IMG/VR virus record: IMGVR_UViG_3300034160_000027
Coordinates: 5,099 to 69,098 of that record
From: a virus
DNA length: 64,000 nt
Direction: 5' to 3' (one strand)
Shown: one piece after another, positions 16,118-46,921 of the stretch
Layout of the letters: every line of letters starts with the position of its first letter
Numbering within the stretch: position 1 is the first letter of the stretch
Program-made: the position numbers and the translations under genes
The notes under the pieces: generated by a model
Seen by the model: the letters and a program-made list of their open reading frames with translations, nothing else
What the model was told of the DNA's origin: nothing
Databases searched by the model: none

Positions 16118-17566
16118 TTAAACAGCGATGGGCGCTTTGATCGCCGGCCAAGGGTTATAGCCGACTAACTTGCAGTCGGCCAGCGTATAGTCGAAAATCG
16201 ACTCTTTCCGGTTCAGTGCAAGCTGTGGAAGTGGCATAGGTTCTCTCGCCAGTTGAGAGAACACGATATCCGGGTGGATGTGGTTCTGGTACAGATGAAG
16301 GTCTCCGAAATGGATGATAAGGTCGCCAACAAGCATGTTGCATTGCTGTGCCAGCATGTGCGTAAGCAACGCGTAACTGGCGATATTGTAGGGAACGCCG
16401 AGGAACGCGTCCGCGCTGCGTTGATCCATGCGCAATGATAACCGACCCACCGGCGCGGTGCCGAACATATACGGCTCACGCTCCTTTGGCGTCAGTGGAT
16501 CGACGTTACACTGGAATAGGCAATGGCACGGAGCGAGTGCCATGAAAGGCAAGTCCGCGGGGTTCCACGCTATAACAACGTGTCGGCGAGAGAACGGGTT
16601 AGCCCGCAGGTTATTGATGAGTTCGCTTATTTGGTCTACGCCCGGTTCCCCGTTAACAGAAAAGCCCCTCCACTGTTTTCCGTATATAGGTCCTAAATCT
16701 CCGCGGTTTATGAGTCTCCTCCGGATTCTAGTGTTAGAGTGCGGCACGTATTTTTGAAATGCCCACCCCCGTGCTGTTACATTGTTCCCTTTTAAGATGG
16801 CAGGCAAGCCCTCGGTAACAAACCTATGGATAGATGTTTGGCTAATGCCGCAGGCGTTAGACGCTGCTCTCAGACCTTCATACACTTTTGTTACACCTTC
16901 CGGGTTGGTTATGAGGATATATTCACTATGCACATTTTCTTCCTTCGGAAGCCATATGCACGTGTCTGGCCCGTACTGGTTAGACCCGTAGTAGTCTTTA
17001 TCAAGTTCGTATCCGGTCCAGTCGTCCCTTTTATATTCCCAATGAGGTATCATTTGTACATCAGAAACAAACGCCTCTACGTCTTCCCATCTCTCGCATA
17101 CTGTAACGCCTTTTTCTCCGTAATGTTTGTAGTTGTGGGCTCGCACGTTGTAGCAACGATCAAACATCTTGGCCCATGTACTCCTTAGCTTGTCCTTCAC
17201 AGTCCCTTTGGTGTACCCTGGAGACGCGTGCGCGCTGCTCAATCTCTTTTGGGACGGCCGCGCCGGTTCCCTTACGGAGACTGTAGAAAAGCCCCTGTCA
17301 TAGAACCAAGGTCTCTTCCATTCACTCCAGATAGTAACGCCCTGGTCCTCCAGTGTGCGGCTGTTCGTATCGCCACTCAAAAACCAGATTAACTCTGCCA
17401 CCACTGACTTCCAATGAATCTTCTTGGTCGTCAAGAGCGGGAAGCCGGCCGTCAGGTCGAAGCGAATCTGCCGGCCAAAGACAGACCGCGTGCCAGTGCC
17501 CGTGCGGTCCTCCTTGTTACGTCCGTTGTCGAGGACGTCACGGAGAAGATCGTGGTATTGTTTCAT
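16118..17566 (-). CDS. thyA: Thymidylate synthase with a 205-aa in-frame HNH endonuclease insertion
   Basis: Motifs DRTGTGT, FPLLTTKK, ELIWFL.G.TN, GDLGPIYG.QWR, SRR, ALAPCH, QRSAD.FLGVPYN and HLY.NH. Confidence 0.95.
   Translation of the reverse strand: MKQYHDLLRDVLDNGRNKEDRTGTGTRSVFGRQIRFDLTAGFPLLTTKKIHWKSVVAELIWFLSGDTNSRTLEDQGVTIWSEWKRPWFYDRGFSTVSVREPARPSQKRLSSAHASPGYTKGTVKDKLRSTWAKMFDRCYNVRAHNYKHYGEKGVTVCERWEDVEAFVSDVQMIPHWEYKRDDWTGYELDKDYYGSNQYGPDTCIWLPKEENVHSEYILITNPEGVTKVYEGLRAASNACGISQTSIHRFVTEGLPAILKGNNVTARGWAFQKYVPHSNTRIRRRLINRGDLGPIYGKQWRGFSVNGEPGVDQISELINNLRANPFSRRHVVIAWNPADLPFMALAPCHCLFQCNVDPLTPKEREPYMFGTAPVGRLSLRMDQRSADAFLGVPYNIASYALLTHMLAQQCNMLVGDLIIHFGDLHLYQNHIHPDIVFSQLAREPMPLPQLALNRKESIFDYTLADCKLVGYNPWPAIKAPIAV
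16703..17317 (-). mobile_element. HNH + NUMOD1/HTH-type homing endonuclease embedded in-frame in thyA
   Basis: W..M..RCYN....YKHYG.KGV.VCERW...F, LDKD, YGPDTCIW....N, then VYEGLRAAS..CGIS..SI; no intein termini visible. Confidence 0.85.
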
Positions 17567-40981: not shown

Positions 40982-42053
40982 ACTATCTGTCCTCCGGTTC
41001 CGAGTCATGCAACCAATCAAAGAACTCGGAGGCAGCGCCTACACGGCGCTCCTATTTCCGTTTTGCAATCCACGCAGACCGTAGATCGGTATCCGTGAAC
41101 CCCTGCTCACTAAACACAGGTGAGTAGTTATCTTTCAGCCACTCGATAAACGTCATCTTCGGCTCCTTCTTTTCTACAGTAGCCCGGTATCCAAGCGCCC
41201 GAAATGCGTGCGCTATATGCTCCGCAACATCTTCTTTCATCGGCGTCGAGCTGTCTTTCACGCACGATGCAGCGTGTATCATATCCCGTGGGTACCTAAA
41301 AGCATAGCCGTTCATGCCTTCTACACAGACAGCTTTCAGACTAGCCGCGAGCCCGCAGACTTCGCACACAGCCTCACGGGGGCTCTTCACTTCCAGTTCG
41401 CCGTGGCAGTCGTCACACGTACAGTGCCAGCATCCTACCAAGCCCTCGTAAAGCTCGGTCCCAGTCTCCCCGGTGCCGCCACACTCCCAGCAATCTTCGC
41501 TTAGATGCTTACTCACTTTCCTACCTCCCGTCTAATAGTCTTTCCACAATACTCGCAGAATCGTGGTGCGCGGTCTCCGTACGCGGAAAAATCTATGAAA
41601 TGCCAACCAGAGTCTTTTCCTGCGCACCCAATCGTCCAAAAAGTCTCTTTATACTCTGGAATTGCTGTCCACGTGCACTTTCCCCGAGGCGCGTACCCCG
41701 CTAAGAATCCGAGGATGGCCGGTACGGTAAGGAACCCGAACATGGCGATGGGGAAAGCCGCGGTAGCCTGAACGCACTCGCACCGCTGGTGGTGAACACC
41801 ATAAGCGGTCAGTAGGCACCAAAACACGATGTAGGCCGCCAGGAGTAAGGCCGCAACCTTTCGTATGCTCATGCTTTTATCCTCACATAGTAATCCATGT
41901 TTCCGAGACTTGCGGAGTACCTGTACTGCTTTGCACGCGGGTCCAGACAGTCAAAGAGCCTGCGCCCGTCCAAGGCGTAATATGTATTCTGTAAGGCCGT
42001 CCGGTACATTTTCTCCGGGCATTGCTGCACAGCATAGTCCACCCGGTCGTCGC

Positions 42054-42344
42054 TCATAGATCGTCCTTCACACCGCACTCGCCGCCACAGGCTGCATAGC
42101 CCGCTAGATCTACCCACGAGTCAATGTGATTACCGTCGCACGCAATCAGCCGTGCTATCTTGAGCAACGCCATCATGCACGCCACATCATGCGCCCGTAA
42201 GACGCCGGTATGGTGGTGTCTGAGATATGCGTTCCACAGGTCCTCGATGATATCAAAGCTGTTCTCAGGACCTCCGTAGGAGTTCTCACGTTCGCCCTCA
42301 ACGATGGAGAGGGCGGTATTCAGAATTACTTTTCGAGTTGTCAT
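42054..42344 (-). CDS. DUF6378-like protein (phage nucleotide-modification-associated helical domain)
   Basis: IL..A..IV.G.R...YG.PE..F..I..LW..YL...VA.MMALLKIAR...DSWVDLAGYAACG. Confidence 0.75.
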   Translation of the reverse strand: MTTRKVILNTALSIVEGERENSYGGPENSFDIIEDLWNAYLRHHHTGVLRAHDVACMMALLKIARLIACDGNHIDSWVDLAGYAACGGECGVKDDL

Positions 42345-42398
42345 TTGTTGATCTCTATTATCGGGACTATGGGCCAGATCATACGTTCCTCCCTATGA

Positions 42399-43556
42399 TC
42401 AAAGAAATGTACCGCTAGGACGAACGGACTCTCGATCAGGGCCGGACGCAACAAGGACTGCATCATCCCGCAAAACCTCATACGCTTCTCCTATATTCGA
42501 GTCGGCTGCTTGTGCCCCTGAATTAGCCCACGTTACTGCCAGCCGTGGAGAACGTACTTGACATAAGTCCGCCGTGGTAGCGACTTCGTAGTCCCGAGCT
42601 ATCGCGTATCTCATCTGAGCTATTGACAGCCTAGCATAACGCAGCGCTCCTTGCCACTCATTCGGCGGGTTGGTCCCGTCGGGTAGCGTAGCACCGTCCT
42701 TCTGAAGCACGTGTTCCGCACCTTCTCTTGCAGGGCCCTTCACTGGTACCCAGTCTAAGTACATTGGCCCCGGGCCGTGCCTAGTGAGGTACGTCCGAGT
42801 GACGTAGATCGGCTTAACAGGAATCCGCGACCTGGCGAGAAGCGTGCACACGTTTGTCATTCCAGTATTTGACGGGGTGACGTACGGAAAGAACCCGCTG
42901 TTCTGGTCAAGCAGCAGCCCTTGTGAGCCCTCAAAGATGCACGGGTTGCGGGTGACATCCTCGTCGTTTCGAATCGTGACCCGGCCCATTAACTCTTCTA
43001 CCGCTGCGGCGTAATGGTGATCGTCACTTGATGCCACAAAGTCCGTCAATAGCGAGTGAAAGATCCGCGCGTGTTTGCACAACGTCAATGCAGCTTGCCT
43101 GCTCGCAAGCACGGCTGTCAGCCGCAAGTCCGGGTACGCAGAGCGGCGTACTGCGTGCGCTACACCATGCCCGACTGACCCGTGGCGCGCGACACCCCGT
43201 GCAACCTCTCGTTGTTGGTTGGCCTCAATATCGGCCGGCACAATAAATCGGGTACGCGGGTCTATGGAGATAAGGGGACGAACGCCAAGACTCTCCAGCA
43301 CACTGACCTCCCGTAAAAGGTACACTGGGTTTATGAGCATGAAACGCGAGATGTGCGTTGGCACGCCCGATAAGGCTCCTGATCCGACTTGGGCGAATGT
43401 AAACGTGCCGTCTGGGCATGTAACAGTATGCCCGGATTGTGACCCCCCGCTGAAGCGGACCACGGTCTCGTGGTTTCCCTGCGACGCCAGATAGTCCACT
43501 ACCTGCCCTTTCCCCTCGTCCCCAAAGCCCGCCCCAATAACTGCGATATGATTCAT
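42399..43556 (-). CDS. Divergent adenylosuccinate-synthetase (PurA)-like ligase
   Basis: GDEGKG, RF.GG.Q.GHT, EGSQG.LLD, FPYVT.S and TRHG.GP are present; the Asp-binding and guanine-specificity motifs are altered. Confidence 0.85.
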   Translation of the reverse strand: MNHIAVIGAGFGDEGKGQVVDYLASQGNHETVVRFSGGSQSGHTVTCPDGTFTFAQVGSGALSGVPTHISRFMLINPVYLLREVSVLESLGVRPLISIDPRTRFIVPADIEANQQREVARGVARHGSVGHGVAHAVRRSAYPDLRLTAVLASRQAALTLCKHARIFHSLLTDFVASSDDHHYAAAVEELMGRVTIRNDEDVTRNPCIFEGSQGLLLDQNSGFFPYVTPSNTGMTNVCTLLARSRIPVKPIYVTRTYLTRHGPGPMYLDWVPVKGPAREGAEHVLQKDGATLPDGTNPPNEWQGALRYARLSIAQMRYAIARDYEVATTADLCQVRSPRLAVTWANSGAQAADSNIGEAYEVLRDDAVLVASGPDRESVRPSGTFL

Positions 43557-43606
43557 AGCACCCTCTAGGGGTGCCCAACCCCTCGGTTGAGCACCGTGGT
43601 TAACGT

Positions 43607-44542
43607 TTAGAAACGCACGATCCCGGTTCCGCCAGTACGTGCAACCGACTTGGCGCCTGGCTTGACCCCTTCCAGGGCCTTACCGACCACCAATGCAGTA
43701 GACCCCGACCAACTTGTGGCAACGACATCGGCGTCCCGCCCCTCAATGACCTCAATCAACGATACGATGACCTCGCTCATCTTAGAGATGTCGGACAGCG
43801 GAACCGCCATCTGCCCGAGCACCTGCTGCCAGGACCGCTTCACTGCGTCCGTGTGCAGGCGCATGTGCTGGCCCTCCTCCACCATCAAGTGGATGACGTG
43901 CCACTGCGTGGAGAGCGCGTCGAGCATCTGTGCGTTCGTGGGGGCGCTTTGCGGGGCGCTTCCGAACACCCGGGTGATTTGATCCGGAGTCAGGTCCGGC
44001 GGGCACTCTTCGTCCCCCACCGTGATAAGGTATCCCTTCTCACCCCGCCTCTCGAAGGCGTCATGCGACACCCGCGTTAGGGTTGCGTACCAGGCGAGGT
44101 TGGTCGATTCACTGCTGTTGCCGCCGCCGCCGCCCTCCAGCCACAGTTTCTCCACCTGTGGGACCAGTGACGCCGTGTCGCTCTCAAACTGCGTCAACTG
44201 GAGCGGGGCACGGTCTCCCGCGGCCACGTCCCCGAAGCCTCCGACAGCCACCTGTGGGCCGATAACGACCTGCCGGGAGATGAGTTCCTCAAACAACTGT
44301 CCGATACCTTTCTTCGCCAACTGCTCTGCCAACGGTCCCATGGAACCAGTCACATCGAGGACCCAGACCACCGGCCGAGTGACAGGATTGATGTCGGAGT
44401 CGCGGGACTCCCGCAGGGTGATGTTGCGCGGGTCGAGGTCCGGGCTCATCGACCGAGCCGAGTAGAGCCGGTCCACGGGTGCGCTGGCAACGCGAGCCGA
44501 ATGCTTTGCCCAGTCTGCGCTGCTGAATGTCGTACCACCCAT
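43607..44542 (-). CDS. von Willebrand factor A (vWA) domain protein
   Basis: Start MGGTTFS after GGGAG; MIDAS-like DVTGSM, QFESD, EGGGGGN..ES and TVGDE. Confidence 0.85.
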   Translation of the reverse strand: MGGTTFSSADWAKHSARVASAPVDRLYSARSMSPDLDPRNITLRESRDSDINPVTRPVVWVLDVTGSMGPLAEQLAKKGIGQLFEELISRQVVIGPQVAVGGFGDVAAGDRAPLQLTQFESDTASLVPQVEKLWLEGGGGGNSSESTNLAWYATLTRVSHDAFERRGEKGYLITVGDEECPPDLTPDQITRVFGSAPQSAPTNAQMLDALSTQWHVIHLMVEEGQHMRLHTDAVKRSWQQVLGQMAVPLSDISKMSEVIVSLIEVIEGRDADVVATSWSGSTALVVGKALEGVKPGAKSVARTGGTGIVRF

Positions 44543-44543
44543 A

Positions 44544-45542
44544 TCATGTCTCCCGAGCACCGTAGATGGCGCTCTCTGCGTAGTTGAACTGAATGAATTT
44601 ACGTGCGCCGAACCCGGCGTCACGCGCCTGTTCCCACTCTCGGTACACCGTGACCGCAGGTCGCCCTGCAAACGGTACCGCCAGGAACTCTCGAACCGTC
44701 CTTGGTATCTCTTTCCTCCCCATTAGCTGCGTTGGGGACTCTACTCCGAATAGGTTTGCTATCGTGTATCGAATAACCTCCAAGTCAAGGTCGTGAGTGA
44801 GTAGGGGCTTACCTGTTGGACCCGGCTTCGCTAACTCCGCACTTTGCATCGGTAACGCTACAGCAGGCGTCCCGGCTCTACCAGAGTACCACCAGCCTCC
44901 ATACAGGTGCAGCGTATGGGCCTCAAGATTGGCATAGAGATGGTTAATGGAAATGGCGCCGTGCACGGTTCCGTGCCACTCCAGATAGCAGGCTACGTGC
45001 AACAGCCTACCGGTCATCCATGCAACGTGTCGCGGGTCAAGGGGCGCGTATGCGCGCAGCACTCGACGTAGCGGGTGGACAAAAGGCGGTCTAGCAATCC
45101 GCAGTACGGTGTCCGAGCAACCGCAGACTTCTGGTAAGATTAGCAGAGTCTTCTCGCGGAGCCCTTTGTTATCGGTTGGACCGGGACGCGCAACGCACGC
45201 TGCTATAGTTTTTCGTGCATTTTGTAGTAGGTCAGCGTTATCCGGGCCAACAGCAAACACGACCGCACTAGGCCCTGTGTAAGCCGTTTCGATATCTGCC
45301 TCGTCACGTACCCAATAAGCCACACGCTCTTTGCTACTGAGGGTGATAGTCCTTCCATCATCCCACGGGAGTCCTTCTTTGACTACGCGCAGGGCACTAT
45401 CGTATGCCTCCTTTAACTCTTGGAAGGCTTTATCACTGCCTCCCCCGTCGGGGTGGGCAGTACGCCGTAGCCGTTTATATTGTTGAATGATATCCTCTTC
45501 GCTACCGTAAGAGAATACGCTACCGGGTAGTACGTTTGACAT
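44544..45542 (-). CDS. J-domain fused to a protein-kinase-like fold (probable pseudokinase)
   Basis: YKRL...HPDGGG...FQEL..AY is a J-domain signature. The kinase C-lobe-like W...LL....YL..HG.VHGAI...H and LYGGW lack the catalytic Asp residues. Confidence 0.75.
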   Translation of the reverse strand: MSNVLPGSVFSYGSEEDIIQQYKRLRRTAHPDGGGSDKAFQELKEAYDSALRVVKEGLPWDDGRTITLSSKERVAYWVRDEADIETAYTGPSAVVFAVGPDNADLLQNARKTIAACVARPGPTDNKGLREKTLLILPEVCGCSDTVLRIARPPFVHPLRRVLRAYAPLDPRHVAWMTGRLLHVACYLEWHGTVHGAISINHLYANLEAHTLHLYGGWWYSGRAGTPAVALPMQSAELAKPGPTGKPLLTHDLDLEVIRYTIANLFGVESPTQLMGRKEIPRTVREFLAVPFAGRPAVTVYREWEQARDAGFGARKFIQFNYAESAIYGARET

Positions 45543-45553
45543 AGTTTCCGCCT

Positions 45554-45943
45554 TTAGGCCGGGATGTTTTTACCCGTGTTGAATACGCGCCAGGTCTTTT
45601 GAGCCTCCGCAAAGCAGGCCCCGTCCATACCGGGCAACTGCACTGGCTCCCCCGCTAAGAGTAAGTAGAACTCTCGTGGCTCTAGGTACCCTATGTGCTC
45701 CCCGAGACCGTAGGCGCCAAAACGATCGGACGCGCGCCAAAAGCCATCGGTTCCTTGCTTTAGCACCAAGTAAGAGTGGAAGCCGTCCCCGGAGTGCCCA
45801 ATGCACAGGCACACGGCTCCTTCACCCGGAGGCTGTACGCCGTGCCCCATGCGGAACGTGCCCCGCTTCTCGGAGTACCTGTGCAGACTCCCGTTCGGGG
45901 TAATTGATGTCCAGGCCCTTGTGCCGCCGTCTATTATGTCCAT
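45554..45943 (-). CDS. Hypothetical protein
   Basis: AGGAGG RBS; in an operon with the J/vWA/PurA genes. Confidence 0.65.
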   Translation of the reverse strand: MDIIDGGTRAWTSITPNGSLHRYSEKRGTFRMGHGVQPPGEGAVCLCIGHSGDGFHSYLVLKQGTDGFWRASDRFGAYGLGEHIGYLEPREFYLLLAGEPVQLPGMDGACFAEAQKTWRVFNTGKNIPA

Positions 45944-46434
45944 GCTGACCTCCTGTTAGTGTGTTTGATTGGTTCATCAGTTGTTTGCTCTTGCGTATAA
46001 CCAAAGACGAGGTATGGGTACCCATTACCGACGTTTACGCCTGCCACAATGTGCACGAGTACAATTGTGGGGTCTTGGAAGAACTCCCGAAGCGCCTCTT
46101 GAAAGAATAGCGCAGTACGGCGTGGGTACTTTTCTTCTGCGGCTTGCTGTGCCGCTGTCCAACTACGAGTGCTATCGTCGGCCAGGCGATCGGAATAAGT
46201 GTAACCTGCGCCCGGATACGTGGCCTCCTCGTACTGTCCTGAAACGAGCTTAGACTTGTCCGCAGCCCACACTGTTCGCCCGTCGCTGAACCCGGAACAC
46301 GACTGTCTGAAACGATCATCCGTGTAGTGGGGGCTCAGATTATCGAGCACTCCATTGCCTGTTTGGCATAACGGGAAACTTGAAGACCTCCCTCTGCGTC
46401 CATACATCACCCCTAACACGTCTACTTCGTTCAT
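45934..46434 (-). CDS. Hypothetical protein, first gene after the 46468 promoter
   Basis: Start MNEVDV after an A/C-rich leader; YSDRL and N..NGYPYLVFGY motifs. Confidence 0.65.
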   Translation of the reverse strand: MNEVDVLGVMYGRRGRSSSFPLCQTGNGVLDNLSPHYTDDRFRQSCSGFSDGRTVWAADKSKLVSGQYEEATYPGAGYTYSDRLADDSTRSWTAAQQAAEEKYPRRTALFFQEALREFFQDPTIVLVHIVAGVNVGNGYPYLVFGYTQEQTTDEPIKHTNRRSAWT

Positions 46435-46467
46435 GCTGCTCTCTCGTTGCGTTGTTATGATGTGCTC

Positions 46468-46512
46468 ATAGTAGCCGAATACTAAGACTCTGGCCACTAC
46501 CGTTCGTCGGAT
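46468..46512 (-). promoter_or_regulatory. Box promoter: ATCCGACGAACGGTAG-TGGCCA-N17-TACTAT
   Basis: Same geometry as three other promoters at 46951, 48497 and 48778. Confidence 0.8.
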
Positions 46513-46921
46513 GCTATCTGCTTGCTCAACCGATCATAGAGGACCACGTTCACAGCGGCGGCTAGGTTCTTCGTAGGAACGTATACCACGAGAGCACTCT
46601 GGAGCCGAGCGTCCCATCTTCGGGACCAAACACATAGAACGTACGTTCCGGGTGTTTGTAGCCCACTAAAGACACCGCTCCGGGGACTAGATCAACTGCC
46701 ACAGGGATACAGTCGAATGGAATTACGTCATGGAGGTCTTCGCACTGTATCAACGGGATATGACGGTAGACCTTCATCGTATCCGCGGGGGCGCGGCTGT
46801 AGCGGTGCCCACTTGTTGCAACCATTGCTGCGCCGTAGCACCCGGCCACACGTAGTACGGAGCCGATGTTCACGGGTGTTTTCGGATGATCTGACCCGGT
46901 TGCTGCATATCCTCCGGTCAT
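46497..46921 (-). pseudogene. SpoU/TrmH-family (SPOUT) RNA methyltransferase, frameshifted
   Basis: PKTPVNIGSVLR and YVFGPEDG are in one frame; the motif 3 remnant VYVPTKNLAAAVNVVLYDR continues in another frame after about 46585. Confidence 0.8.

What the first reader, a model, noticed from the sequence alone, without database searches (positions are those of the whole stretch)
42054..46512. Phage operon: J-domain pseudokinase + vWA + substrate-switched PurA-like ligase + DUF6378
Seen: one promoter (46468) leads into two unknown ORFs, then an HPD J-domain fused to a kinase-like fold whose HRD and DFG positions read HGA and GGW, a vWA protein with a MIDAS-like DVTGS, a PurA-fold enzyme and a DUF6378-like protein. 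The PurA homolog keeps the catalytic GDEGKG Asp, His41 (GHT) and Gln224 (EGSQG). However, the aspartate-binding loop (E. coli GATTGRRRR) is replaced by TNPPNEWQGALR, IGTTGRG by HGSVGHG, and the guanine-reading TKLD by TWAN. Knowledge: PurZ of Z-genome phages has Ser in place of Asp13, so this is neither PurZ nor standard PurA. Inference: it activates a 6-oxopurine nucleotide and ligates it to an amine other than Asp, possibly using ATP. The acceptor could even be a protein presented by the vWA/pseudokinase pair, with host DnaK recruited through the J-domain. This is a candidate uncharacterised nucleotide-modification, signalling or anti-defence system.
Basis: partly seen in the sequence, partly recalled or inferred. 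Interest (0 to 1): 0.9.

Follow-up and report, generated by a model that had tools for sequence, protein, structure and literature searches.

The report
Phage pseudokinase, vWA, PurA-like cassette
This phage carries one copy of a widespread but undescribed gene set (a chaperone-recruiting dead kinase, a metal-binding vWA protein and a re-tooled relative of the purine enzyme PurA) that is not ordinary AMP synthesis and that many bacteria place next to a sensor of NAD breakdown.

Summary
The genes and motifs are real; only the claimed promoter was not reproduced. Three genes belong together: a J-domain pseudokinase (44544-45542), a vWA/MIDAS protein (43607-44542) and a PurA-like enzyme (42399-43556). 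Across 163 related loci from phages and bacteria, the vWA gene lies beside the PurA-like gene in 158; the other 5 are cut by contig ends. The J-pseudokinase is present in 74. DUF6378 and the two leading ORFs occur in none of 160, so they are only neighbours.

The enzyme keeps the phosphotransfer residues (Asp13, His43, Gln212 in 162-163 of 163). It has lost two of the three arginines of the aspartate loop. It scores far below the PurA and PurZ cut-offs. In 5 of 5 bacteria it coexists with a full-length purA.

New here:
- The vWA protein starts Met-Gly in 152 of 155 loci.
- A C-terminal GVVRF-type tail tracks the J-pseudokinase (51 of 71 against 1 of 76).
- An NrtR regulator directly flanks the cassette in 38 of 80 bacterial loci.

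The function is unknown. My best guess is an NTP-dependent purine-nucleotide ligase that uses a non-aspartate nitrogen nucleophile and is tied to NAD/ADP-ribose stress. No paper found describes it. This scan has noted the same cassette before on other DNA.

The parts
44544..45542 (-). J-domain fused to a kinase-fold domain without catalytic motifs (pseudokinase), 332 aa. Frequent but optional third member of the cassette.
   Evidence: AF2 pLDDT 94.8. Foldseek: 4wb7 J-PKA chimera E 2.6e-6, then ROP2 and VRK3. Homologue in 27 of 80 viral loci, 46 of 80 bacterial loci and phage Sebata.
45447..45455 (-). HPD tripeptide of the J-domain (residues 30-32)
   Evidence: H30 and D32 invariant and P31 at least 90% conserved in 24 sequences.
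44889..44900 (-). GGWW (residues 215-218) at the DFG position; HGA stands at the HRD position
   Evidence: G215 invariant; G216 and W217 at least 90% conserved. The residue at the HRD-Asp position varies among 24 sequences.
43607..44542 (-). vWA/MIDAS protein, 311 aa. Obligate partner of the PurA-like gene. Its ATG lies 4 nt after the stop of the J-pseudokinase gene.
   Evidence: AF2 pLDDT 92.3. Foldseek finds integrin beta-I, Ku80 vWA and ArnB. phrog_2971 E 1.5e-32. Beside the PurA-like gene in 158 of 163 loci. The junction was read.
44537..44542 (-). Met-Gly start of the vWA protein (family motif MGxx[RST][WFY])
   Evidence: A start codon followed by Gly in 152 of 155 evaluable loci. M1 and G2 invariant in 44 of 44.
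44342..44356 (-). MIDAS motif DVTGS (residues 63-67)
   Evidence: D63, G66 and S67 invariant and T65 at least 90% conserved in 44 sequences. GGGN (139-142) and T174/D177 are also invariant.
43610..43624 (-). C-terminal tail GIVRF-COOH of the vWA protein, after a low-confidence linker
   Evidence: The tail motif occurs in 51 of 71 loci with a J-pseudokinase and 1 of 76 without. It holds on independent pairs, median p 0.031. pLDDT is below 50 for residues 301-311.
42399..43556 (-). PurA-like P-loop ligase, 385 aa, of a clade distinct from PurA and PurZ
   Evidence: PF00709 E 4e-41 over model 1-273 of 416. NCBIfam scores below all cut-offs. A tree split with 100% support separates it from 5 canonical PurA.
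43506..43523 (-). P-loop GDEGKG with the catalytic Asp13
   Evidence: D13 and K16 each in 162 of 163. Aligned to E. coli PurA.
43425..43433 (-). GHT (His43 of this protein = His41 of E. coli PurA)
   Evidence: His in 163 of 163; alignment.
42918..42932 (-). EGSQG (Gln212 = Gln224 of E. coli PurA)
   Evidence: Gln in 163 of 163; alignment.
42639..42680 (-). DGTNPPNEWQGALR, the family-specific loop that replaces the aspartate loop TTGR-x-RR
   Evidence: N296 and Q302 in 163 of 163, T295 in 160, R306 in 160. Position 305 is L/I/F where all 5 canonical sequences have Arg.
42522..42533 (-). TWAN at the TK(L/I)D guanine-specificity motif
   Evidence: Position 343 is C in 126, H in 30 and W in 6 (canonical K in 5 of 5). 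Position 345 is D in 155 and N in 6, the window among the 6.
42054..42344 (-). DUF6378 protein, 96 aa. A neighbour, not part of the conserved cassette.
   Evidence: PF19905 E 1.2e-28. No homologue in 0 of 160 other cassette loci.
45554..46497 (-). ORF-A (45934-46497, or from the ATG at 46434) and ORF-B (45554-45943). Unknown, specific to this phage, tightly packed upstream of the cassette.
   Evidence: No Pfam, PHROG, NCBIfam or PADLOC family. No homologue in 0 of 160 other loci.

Best explanation
Genes 44544-45542, 43607-44542 and 42399-43556 are one copy of a mobile cassette shared by large and medium phages and by many bacteria. Its core is an obligate pair: a vWA/MIDAS protein and a PurA-fold enzyme.

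Shown:
- The enzyme keeps everything PurA needs to move the gamma-phosphate of an NTP onto the 6-oxo group of a purine mononucleotide: the P-loop, the Asp base, the His acid, the Gln, and the Arg and Thr that align near the canonical phosphate-site region.
- The aspartate pocket is rebuilt. Two of its three arginines are gone, and an invariant D-x-T-N-x-x-N-x-[WYF]-Q-G-x-[LIF]-R loop and a new invariant His260 take its place.

Inferred:
- The enzyme still forms a phosphorylated nucleotide intermediate but hands it to a nitrogen nucleophile that is not a dicarboxylic amino acid.
- It does so only together with the vWA protein.
- The J-domain pseudokinase, where present, grips the GVVRF-type C-terminal tail of the vWA protein and brings in host DnaK through its invariant HPD.
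- In bacteria an NrtR (Nudix plus winged-helix) regulator sits directly and divergently upstream. The cassette would then be switched on when NAD is broken down to ADP-ribose.
- In the phage it would serve nucleotide or NAD homeostasis against host depletion-type immunity.

The substrate, nucleophile and product are unknown.
For: Linkage:
- vWA lies upstream on the same strand in 79 of 80 IMG/VR loci, 76 of 80 bacterial loci and 3 of 3 named phages. All 5 misses have the PurA-like match within 470 nt of a contig end.
- Distance matrices of the two proteins correlate at r 0.851 over 151 loci, and 0 of 500 permutations reach that value.
- The genes overlap or abut in many loci.

Catalytic core over 163 family rows:
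- D13 162, K16 162, H43 163, Q212 163, R138 162, T231 158.

Pocket change:
- Canonical TTGR-x-RR becomes [WYF]QG-x-[LIF]R.
- N296, Q302 and H260 are present in 163 of 163.

Not housekeeping:
- 5 of 5 genomes hold a separate purA at 572-636 bits over the whole model. The paralogue scores 132-178 bits over positions 1 to about 280-314.
- NCBIfam scores lie below every cut-off.

J-pseudokinase to vWA coupling:
- The tail motif occurs in 51 of 71 loci with the J-pseudokinase and 1 of 76 without (Fisher 8e-22).
- On 8 independent pairs it goes the same way in 5.5, the opposite way in 0 and shows no difference in 2.5 (median p 0.031).

NAD link:
- An NrtR gene (PF21906 E 1.4e-23 plus NUDIX) flanks the first cassette gene in 38 of 80 bacterial loci. 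It is divergent in 37, with gaps of 30-220 nt in 33.
- A NAMPT-family gene lies within 8 kb in 7 of 80 viral and 5 of 80 bacterial loci. NADAR lies in 3 of 80 viral loci and in phiKT1024.
- NadM-Nudix and a PRTase sit upstream in Rhizobium phage Y65.
Against: - No member has any biochemical datum that I could find.
- This phage's own record (69,098 bases, 76% complete) holds no NAMPT, NUDIX or NMNAT-type gene.
- Only about 10 of 80 viral loci have an NAD-related neighbour within 8 kb, so the NAD link is mainly a bacterial observation.
- The vWA protein has 24 invariant positions, many of them polar, in 44 sequences. That is more than a scaffold needs, so it may itself bind the ligand or do chemistry.
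- The 5'-phosphate pocket is not intact. Asn38 of E. coli PurA is Gln in 159 of 163, and the second Thr of IGTTG is Cys or Val in 159 of 163. The nucleotide may therefore not be IMP.
- Co-inheritance of adjacent genes (r 0.85) does not show physical contact.
Confidence: 0.4

Rival explanations
1. Protein-nucleotide conjugation. After removal of Met1, the free alpha-amine of Gly2 of the vWA protein takes the place of aspartate and attacks the phosphorylated purine nucleotide. The vWA protein then carries a nucleotide joined through the base to its N-terminus. The J-pseudokinase and DnaK handle the modified protein.
For: - A start codon followed by Gly occurs in 152 of 155 loci, with a conserved MGxx[RST][WFY] peptide.
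- In the exhaustive search most of the listed alignments start at residue 1 of both proteins.
- The aspartate pocket has lost two arginines and gained Asp, Asn, Gln and aromatic residues.
- The two genes are always adjacent and often overlap.
- Removal of Met before Gly is established knowledge (recalled).
Against: - The first ten residues are modelled with mean pLDDT 88 as part of the fold, not as a free arm. Gly2 may therefore be structural.
- No mass or biochemical datum exists.
Confidence: 0.13
2. NTP-driven sensor or chaperone-like switch of a conflict system. The PurA-fold protein acts chiefly as the NTPase partner of a peptide-binding vWA protein, as MoxR or GTPases do in known vWA systems, with a J-domain adaptor to Hsp70. 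The cassette would sense or disarm a protein of the opponent and would not make a metabolite.
For: - vWA proteins are described as peptide-binding co-chaperones of MoxR AAA+ or GTPase partners, some with Hsp70 or DnaJ, in conflict systems (PMC7159879, passages read).
- Phage and bacterial copies interleave on the tree, with 10 label changes of which 6 are forced by well-supported branches.
- The flanks differ from locus to locus.
- The vWA tail varies by class with the partner.
Against: - Residues needed only for chemistry on the nucleotide (Asp13, His43, Gln212) are kept in 162-163 of 163.
- No effector domain travels with the cassette.
- No PADLOC model matches at a meaningful score.
- An NrtR neighbour points to metabolism.
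Confidence: 0.15
3. Ordinary auxiliary metabolic gene: the enzyme is a divergent adenylosuccinate synthetase that boosts AMP synthesis during infection.
For: - Best matches in Pfam, NCBIfam and the PDB are PurA.
- Records annotate relatives as adenylosuccinate synthase.
Against: - Two of the three arginines of the aspartate loop are lost in all 163 members.
- The C-terminal subdomain of roughly 55 residues is deleted.
- It scores 120.7 bits against a cut-off of 402.
- It has an obligate vWA partner.
- It coexists with a full purA in 5 of 5 genomes.
- No PurB-type lyase is found in the phage record.
Confidence: 0.05
4. Nucleic-acid base chemistry: the enzyme makes a non-canonical purine (deoxy)nucleotide for phage DNA or RNA, in the manner of PurZ.
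For: - PurZ sets the precedent of a phage PurA relative with changed substrates (PMC12884076, section 24 read).
- PHROGs files the protein with the PurZ-named family phrog_1211 at E 4e-56.
- The gene lies among replication and nucleotide-metabolism genes.
Against: - Asp13 is kept, whereas that paper reports Ser in all 147 phage PurZ sequences.
- The PurZ model gives 51.8 bits against a cut-off of 300.
- No YfbR-like (DatZ) or PF04447 gene is in the record. This is weak evidence: the record is 76% complete, and the PF04447 control rang in no genome.
- The same cassette sits in ordinary bacterial chromosomes beside NrtR.
Confidence: 0.07

Closest known systems
Adenylosuccinate synthetase PurA (EC 6.3.4.4; PF00709, TIGR00184; E. 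coli structures such as 1ADE and 1CG3)
   Same: Same fold over the first 270 or so residues. The P-loop GDEGKG with the Asp base, the GHT His, FEG(A/S)QG with the Gln, TR-x-G-x-GP and the C-terminal GP-x-R are kept. It probably works the same way in its first half-reaction.
   Different: - The aspartate loop TTGR-x-RR is replaced.
- A C-terminal subdomain is deleted.
- The Lys of TKLD is absent in 163 of 163.
- His260 is new.
- It scores a third of the equivalog cut-off.
- It is always paired with a vWA gene and is a paralogue beside a true purA.
PurZ / PurZ0 of Z-genome phages (NF038379; 6FM1, 7ODX, 7VF6 as named in PMC12884076)
   Same: A phage-borne PurA relative with changed substrate use. 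PHROGs and RefSeq give relatives of this protein the PurZ-type name.
   Different: - Asp13 is kept, whereas the paper reports Ser in all 147 phage PurZ sequences (section 24 read).
- 51.8 bits against a cut-off of 300.
- phmmer E 7e-4 to 6fm1 against 8.5e-27 to a bacterial PurA.
- No DatZ-type gene is in the record.
- PurZ keeps aspartate as its substrate; here the aspartate loop is gone.
MoxR-vWA and GTPase-vWA 'ternary' conflict systems (Kaur, Burroughs, Iyer, Aravind 2020, PMC7159879; passages read)
   Same: A P-loop NTPase gene coupled to a vWA gene plus a third variable component. Hsp70 and DnaJ elements occur in some of them.
   Different: - There is no MoxR AAA+ protein, no TRAFAC GTPase and no effector domain.
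- The NTPase here is a PurA-fold ligase with an intact nucleotide-chemistry site.
- The vWA protein is a small stand-alone protein with a Met-Gly start.
TerY-P triad (vWA TerY + Ser/Thr kinase + PP2C phosphatase; recalled from Anantharaman, Iyer and Aravind 2012, not read here)
   Same: A vWA gene next to a kinase-fold gene.
   Different: - No phosphatase accompanies it.
- The kinase fold lacks the HRD Asp in most members and the DFG Asp.
- It carries a J-domain.
- The vWA protein hits no Pfam vWA or TerY model.
Phage NAD+ reconstitution pathways NARP1, NARP2 and NARP3 (search listings and abstract openings only)
   Same: Carried by phages. In bacteria the cassette sits under the NAD/ADP-ribose regulator NrtR, and in some phages beside NAMPT, NadM-Nudix or NADAR genes.
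   Different: None of the NARP enzyme families (PRPS-like Adps, Namat, NAMPT, NMNAT, PnuC, NadR) is part of the cassette. No NAD-related activity is shown. This phage record has no NAD salvage gene.
Phage J-domain protein Rki of RB43 (recalled from Perrody et al. 2012, not read here)
   Same: A phage-encoded J-domain with HPD that would act on host DnaK.
   Different: Here the J-domain is fused to a pseudokinase and co-occurs with a matching tail on a vWA protein. The cassette is also bacterial.

Membership tests
PurA (adenylosuccinate synthetase) | P-loop GDEGKG with catalytic Asp, His of GHT and Gln of FEGAQG | tested here: met
   Aligned to E. coli PurA. D13 in 162, H43 in 163 and Q212 in 163 of 163.
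PurA (adenylosuccinate synthetase) | Aspartate-binding loop TTGR-x-RR with three conserved arginines | tested here: not met
   The window reads NEWQG-ALR. One Arg is kept (160 of 163), one is replaced by L/I/F and one falls in a gap, against 5 canonical sequences.
PurA (adenylosuccinate synthetase) | Score over the curated equivalog cut-off along the whole model | tested here: not met
   NF002223 120.7 against 402; TIGR00184 107.8 against 395.55. Pfam matches only model positions 1-273 of 416.
PurA (adenylosuccinate synthetase) | Guanine-specificity motif TK(L/I)D | tested here: not met
   The window reads TWAN. In the family Lys occurs in 0 of 163 and Asp in 155 of 163.
PurA (adenylosuccinate synthetase) | Being the genome's AMP-branch enzyme | tested here: not met
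   5 of 5 bacterial genomes with the cassette hold a separate full-length purA.
PurA (adenylosuccinate synthetase) | Catalysis of IMP + L-Asp + GTP to adenylosuccinate | not testable with these tools
   Needs an enzyme assay or purA complementation.
PurZ / PurZ0 | Ser (or Gly) in place of the catalytic Asp13 (definition from PMC12884076, section 24) | tested here: not met
   Asp in the window and in 162 of 163 relatives.
PurZ / PurZ0 | Score over the cut-off of the NCBIfam PurZ model NF038379 | tested here: not met
   51.8 bits against 300.
PurZ / PurZ0 | Company of Z-genome genes (DatZ, MazZ or DUF550 type) | tested here: inconclusive
   No PF12917 or PF04447 match in the 69-kb record. The record is 76% complete, and the PF04447 control rang in no genome.
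von Willebrand A (vWA) domain with MIDAS | vWA Rossmann-like fold | tested here: met
   AF2 pLDDT 92.3. Foldseek finds integrin beta-I, Ku80 vWA and ArnB at E about 1e-6. No Pfam vWA model matches by sequence.
von Willebrand A (vWA) domain with MIDAS | MIDAS motif D-x-S/T-x-S plus later Thr/Asp | tested here: met
   D63-V-T65-G-S67, GGGN 139-142 and T174-x-G-D177 are invariant or nearly so in 44 sequences. Metal binding itself was not tested.
J-domain (Hsp40 co-chaperone) | Helical hairpin with an HPD loop | tested here: met
   HPD conserved in 24 sequences. The model has helices at 15-29 and 37-56. The best fold hit contains the DnaJB1 J-domain. Pfam DnaJ gives 20.5 bits, below the cut-off of 27.8. 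Stimulation of DnaK was not tested.
Active protein kinase | HRD catalytic Asp and DFG Mg-binding Asp | tested here: not met
   The window has HGA and GGW. GGW is conserved (G215 invariant) and the HRD-Asp position varies in 24 sequences. The fold is kinase-like.
MoxR-vWA ternary conflict systems | MoxR AAA+ ATPase next to the vWA gene, plus an effector | tested here: not met
   The only families widely shared among 163 loci are the PurA-like enzyme, vWA, the J-pseudokinase and NrtR.
NrtR regulon (NAD metabolism) | NrtR regulator gene adjacent to the cassette | tested here: inconclusive
   Met in 38 of 80 bacterial loci. No NUDIX match in this phage's record. I did not search for operator sites, and ADP-ribose response is not testable here.

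The most novel reading that the evidence does not exclude
The PurA-like enzyme joins a purine nucleotide, through the C6 position of its base, to the free N-terminal glycine of its vWA partner. That would be a kind of protein-nucleotide bond not known from any system. The GVVRF-type tail then hands the tagged protein to a J-domain pseudokinase and DnaK. The whole would be an ADP-ribose/NAD-stress-responsive switch used by both bacteria and phages.
Probability: 0.12. Interest if true: 0.92.

Novelty: new variant of a known kind. Interest (0 to 1): 0.7.

Why it matters
**How common it is.** The vWA partner alone has 1390 cluster representatives at E up to 0.001 among 1.84 billion. At least 582 stretches turned up in bacterial species genomes and 345 in IMG/VR contigs.

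**A model is at hand.** About 140-200 cultivable cluster C mycobacteriophages carry it, Bxz1 among them.

**Nothing in print.** None of my ten literature searches found a description, and databases label the enzyme as PurA or, wrongly, as PurZ.

**What an answer would give.** It would be a second case, after PurZ, of the PurA scaffold turned to new chemistry, this time with an obligate protein partner. It may also be a new player in the NAD/ADP-ribose contest between phages and bacterial immunity. The three features found here are the Met-Gly start, the tail that tracks the J-pseudokinase and the NrtR neighbour. Together they turn 'unknown function' into specific bench tests.

Tried and rejected
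- **Complex prediction.** I ran the PurA-like enzyme with the vWA protein, both as 44-row alignments. The score was 0.14 against a mark of 0.32. This gives no verdict and is no evidence either way.
- **Fused forms.**
  - The 'longer' search with the enzyme found only an intein-bearing copy.
  - The 'longer' search with the vWA protein found three apparent vWA-PurA fusions. When read they are frameshift or wrong-frame read-throughs in high-GC contigs. I rejected them as evidence.
- **RNA evidence.** The look-up of sequencing runs listed 4 DNA holders and no RNA holder. I laid no reads.
- **Near-identical DNA.** Megablast against the phage collection found no match.
- **PADLOC.** No meaningful hit.
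- **ESM Atlas.** It returned only unnamed clusters and generic vWA leads.
- **A third conserved gene.** In the viral clade without a J-pseudokinase I found none. A 209-aa 'cluster 9' ORF in the Rhizobium loci is a shadow of the NrtR gene on the other strand.
- **PurZ in the tree.** tblastn at E 1e-3 found no PurZ, so the tree holds no PurZ sequences. The distinction from PurZ rests and on the paper.
- **Literature.**
None describes the cassette.
  - PMC10892097 lists both words only in a gene table.
  - PMC12363180 holds none of the four terms.
  - The preprint 10.1101/2025.10.22.683976 does not mention vWA.
  - Supplements are closed. Supplementary Fig. S8 of PMC12884076, a tree of 767 PurA homologues, may show this clade, and I could not see it.
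- **NrtR operators.** I did not search for them.

Full report
**Setting.** The window is part of a 69,098-base IMG/VR virus record that CheckV estimates as 76% complete. Its other long ORFs are phage tail, helicase, DNA polymerase, primase, exonuclease, methyltransferase and thymidylate synthase genes. The flagged region is a tight run of minus-strand ORFs:
- ORF-A: 45934-46497, or from the ATG at 46434 (sequence read).
- ORF-B: 45554-45943.
- J-domain/kinase-like gene: 44544-45542.
- vWA gene.
- PurA-like gene: 42399-43556.
- DUF6378 gene: 42054-42344.

**Observation: J-domain pseudokinase.** Pfam finds a sub-threshold DnaJ match. In 24 aligned homologues H30 and D32 of the HPD are invariant. 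A conserved GGWW replaces DFG, and the HRD-Asp position varies. The AF2 model has pLDDT 94.8. It best matches the DnaJB1-PKA chimera, then the pseudokinases ROP2 and VRK3.

**Observation: vWA protein.** It has no Pfam hit. Its model has pLDDT 92.3 and is an integrin beta-I/Ku80-type vWA fold, with an invariant D-x-T-G-S MIDAS motif. Homologues show that the gene starts at the ATG at 44542, 4 nt after the stop of the upstream gene. It does not start at the TTG that the ORF listing reports.

**Observation: PurA-like enzyme.** It aligns with E. coli PurA over residues 2-266 with GDEGKG, GHT and EGSQG in place.

**Observation: promoter.** The consensus scan did not reproduce the promoter at 46468.

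**What belongs together.**
- A scan of IMG/VR with a family alignment found 345 contigs that encode a relative. I kept 80 loci.
I kept 80 loci.
- tblastn with the window's proteins finds the vWA gene upstream on the same strand in 79 of 80 viral and 76 of 80 bacterial loci. It also finds it in phages phiKT1024, Sebata and RHph_Y65. In all five misses the PurA-like match lies within 470 nt of a contig end.
- The J-pseudokinase is present in 27 of 80 viral loci, 46 of 80 bacterial loci and Sebata.
- DUF6378, ORF-A and ORF-B are found in none of the 160 loci.
- Clustering all flanking ORFs gives no other widely shared family except the regulator described below.
- Distances between PurA-like proteins and between their vWA partners correlate at r 0.851 over 151 loci, with 0 of 500 permutations as high. 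This shows co-inheritance, not contact.
- On a FastTree of 168 rows, the five canonical PurA sequences split from all 163 PurA-like ones with 100% local support. Viral and bacterial copies interleave. The window groups with two viral loci, L005 and L006. FastTree warns of long branches, so I use only these coarse features.

**What the enzyme is not.** Every NCBIfam PurA equivalog scores far below its cut-off; the best is 120.7 against 402. The PurZ model gives 51.8 against 300. In five bacterial genomes that carry the cassette there is also a full-length purA at 572-636 bits, beside the paralogue at 132-178 bits. PMC12884076 (section 24 read) defines phage PurZ by Ser at the Asp13 position in all 147 sequences. 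It leaves the remaining phage PF00709 homologues uncharacterised. Here Asp is kept.

**What the enzyme keeps and changes, over 163 rows.**

| Position | Family | Canonical PurA (5 rows) |
|---|---|---|
| D13 | 162 | D |
| K16 | 162 | K |
| H43 | 163 | H |
| Q212 | 163 | Q |
| H260 | 163 | Val |
| N296 | 163 | His 4, Lys 1 |
| Q302 | 163 | Thr |
| R306 | 160 | Arg |
| 305 | L/I/F | Arg |
| 343 (Lys of TKLD) | C 126, H 30, W 6 | Lys |
| 345 (Asp of TKLD) | D 155, N 6 | Asp |

- A C-terminal segment of roughly 55 residues is missing.
- The window is one of the 6 rows with Asn at position 345.
- I infer that the first half-reaction of PurA survives. That step is phosphoryl transfer from an NTP to a lactam oxygen of a mononucleotide.
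- I also infer that the nucleophile is no longer a dicarboxylate.
- Which NTP this subclade uses is open.

**New features of the partners.**
- The vWA protein begins with a start codon plus Gly in 152 of 155 evaluable loci, followed by xx[RST][WFY]. Met would be removed before Gly (established knowledge, recalled), which leaves a free glycine amine.
- The last residues follow [VILMF][VILMFT][RKEQAS][FLIMVW]-COOH (window: GIVRF) in 51 of 71 loci with a J-pseudokinase and 1 of 76 without.
- On phylogenetically independent pairs the tail goes the same way in 5.5 of 8 and never the opposite way (median p 0.031).
- Loci without the J-pseudokinase carry other tail classes, for example RRLLPFF in Rhizobium.
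- I read the tail as the handle by which the pseudokinase, or DnaK recruited by its J-domain, holds the vWA protein. This is inference.

**Link to NAD.** Earlier notes of this scan pointed to NrtR, and I tested that lead. A cluster of about 236-aa ORFs is an NrtR: PF21906 at E 1.4e-23 plus NUDIX. It directly flanks the first cassette gene in 38 of 80 bacterial loci. It is divergent in 37, with gaps of 30-220 nt in 33. These loci fall in several clades of the tree.
- NAMPT-family genes lie within 8 kb in 7 of 80 viral and 5 of 80 bacterial loci. NADAR lies in 3 of 80 viral loci and in phiKT1024. NadM-Nudix and a PRTase lie upstream in phage Y65.
- NrtR as an ADP-ribose-responsive repressor of NAD genes is recalled knowledge (Rodionov et al. 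2008, not read).
- Against the link for this copy: the phage record holds no NAMPT, NUDIX or NMNAT-type gene, no Hsp70 and no PurB-type lyase.
- In Clostridium carboxidivorans the three genes sit among ordinary chromosomal genes.

**Comparison with the known, and verdict.** The enzyme works like PurA in its first step but fails the membership tests for PurA and PurZ.
- The gene set resembles NTPase-vWA pairs of conflict systems (PMC7159879, passages read). It has no MoxR, GTPase or effector.
- It resembles the TerY-P triad (recalled) only in having vWA next to a kinase fold.
- Ten literature searches found no description.
- This scan has noted the same cassette on other DNA many times (143 notes), so it is not new to the scan.
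- I rate it a new variant of a known kind at the level of the enzyme. The system-level combination has no described counterpart. Interest is 0.7.
- The boldest reading not excluded is nucleotide tagging of the vWA N-terminal glycine, at about 0.12.

Noticed in passing
window 16118-17566 (-): A 482-aa ORF matches thymidylate synthase in two stretches, with an HNH endonuclease domain (residues about 115-270) in frame between them. This could be an inserted homing endonuclease or an intein-like element in the thymidylate synthase gene.
   Followed up: no
window 46562-46921 (-): A 119-aa ORF just upstream of the operon matches SpoU rRNA methylase exactly at the Pfam cut-off (29.7 bits, model positions 7-113 of 142). 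It could be a short or truncated methyltransferase.
   Followed up: no
window 41052-41516 (-): A 154-aa Cys-rich protein downstream in the same gene run carries a CxxCxGxG motif. It matches the DnaJ central zinc-finger domain weakly (E 0.009, below cut-off). It would be a second DnaJ-related element near the J-domain gene.
   Followed up: no
P0122 (metagenomic protein, 840 aa): One PurA-like relative carries intein domains (PF14528, PF14890) inside the enzyme.
   Followed up: no
L002 (Mycobacterium phage Sebata) and other cluster C phages; phrog_1211: RefSeq and PHROGs name these genes '2-aminooxy adenylosuccinate synthetase', a PurZ-type name. Sebata's protein keeps the Asp of the P-loop (GDAGKG) and belongs to the vWA-linked clade. 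The name looks like a mis-annotation.
   Followed up: partly
L096, L101-L105, L108, L115, L116, L119, L128, L141, L158 (Rhizobiaceae loci): Where the J-pseudokinase is absent, the vWA protein ends in a different conserved tail (RRLLPFF or KRFLNFF type). A viral clade ends in PKMLGAP-like tails. This suggests other, unidentified docking partners.
   Followed up: partly
window 43607-44542 (-): The ESM Atlas holds this vWA protein only from residue 32. The ORF listing offers an upstream TTG at 44671. Both miss the conserved Met-Gly start at 44542, so automatic gene calls may hide the N-terminal motif.
   Followed up: yes
window 42412-42427 (-): A weak terminator-like hairpin lies at the 3' end of the PurA-like gene, before DUF6378. 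The number of such sites in the region (5) is no higher than in shuffles (4.7).
   Followed up: no
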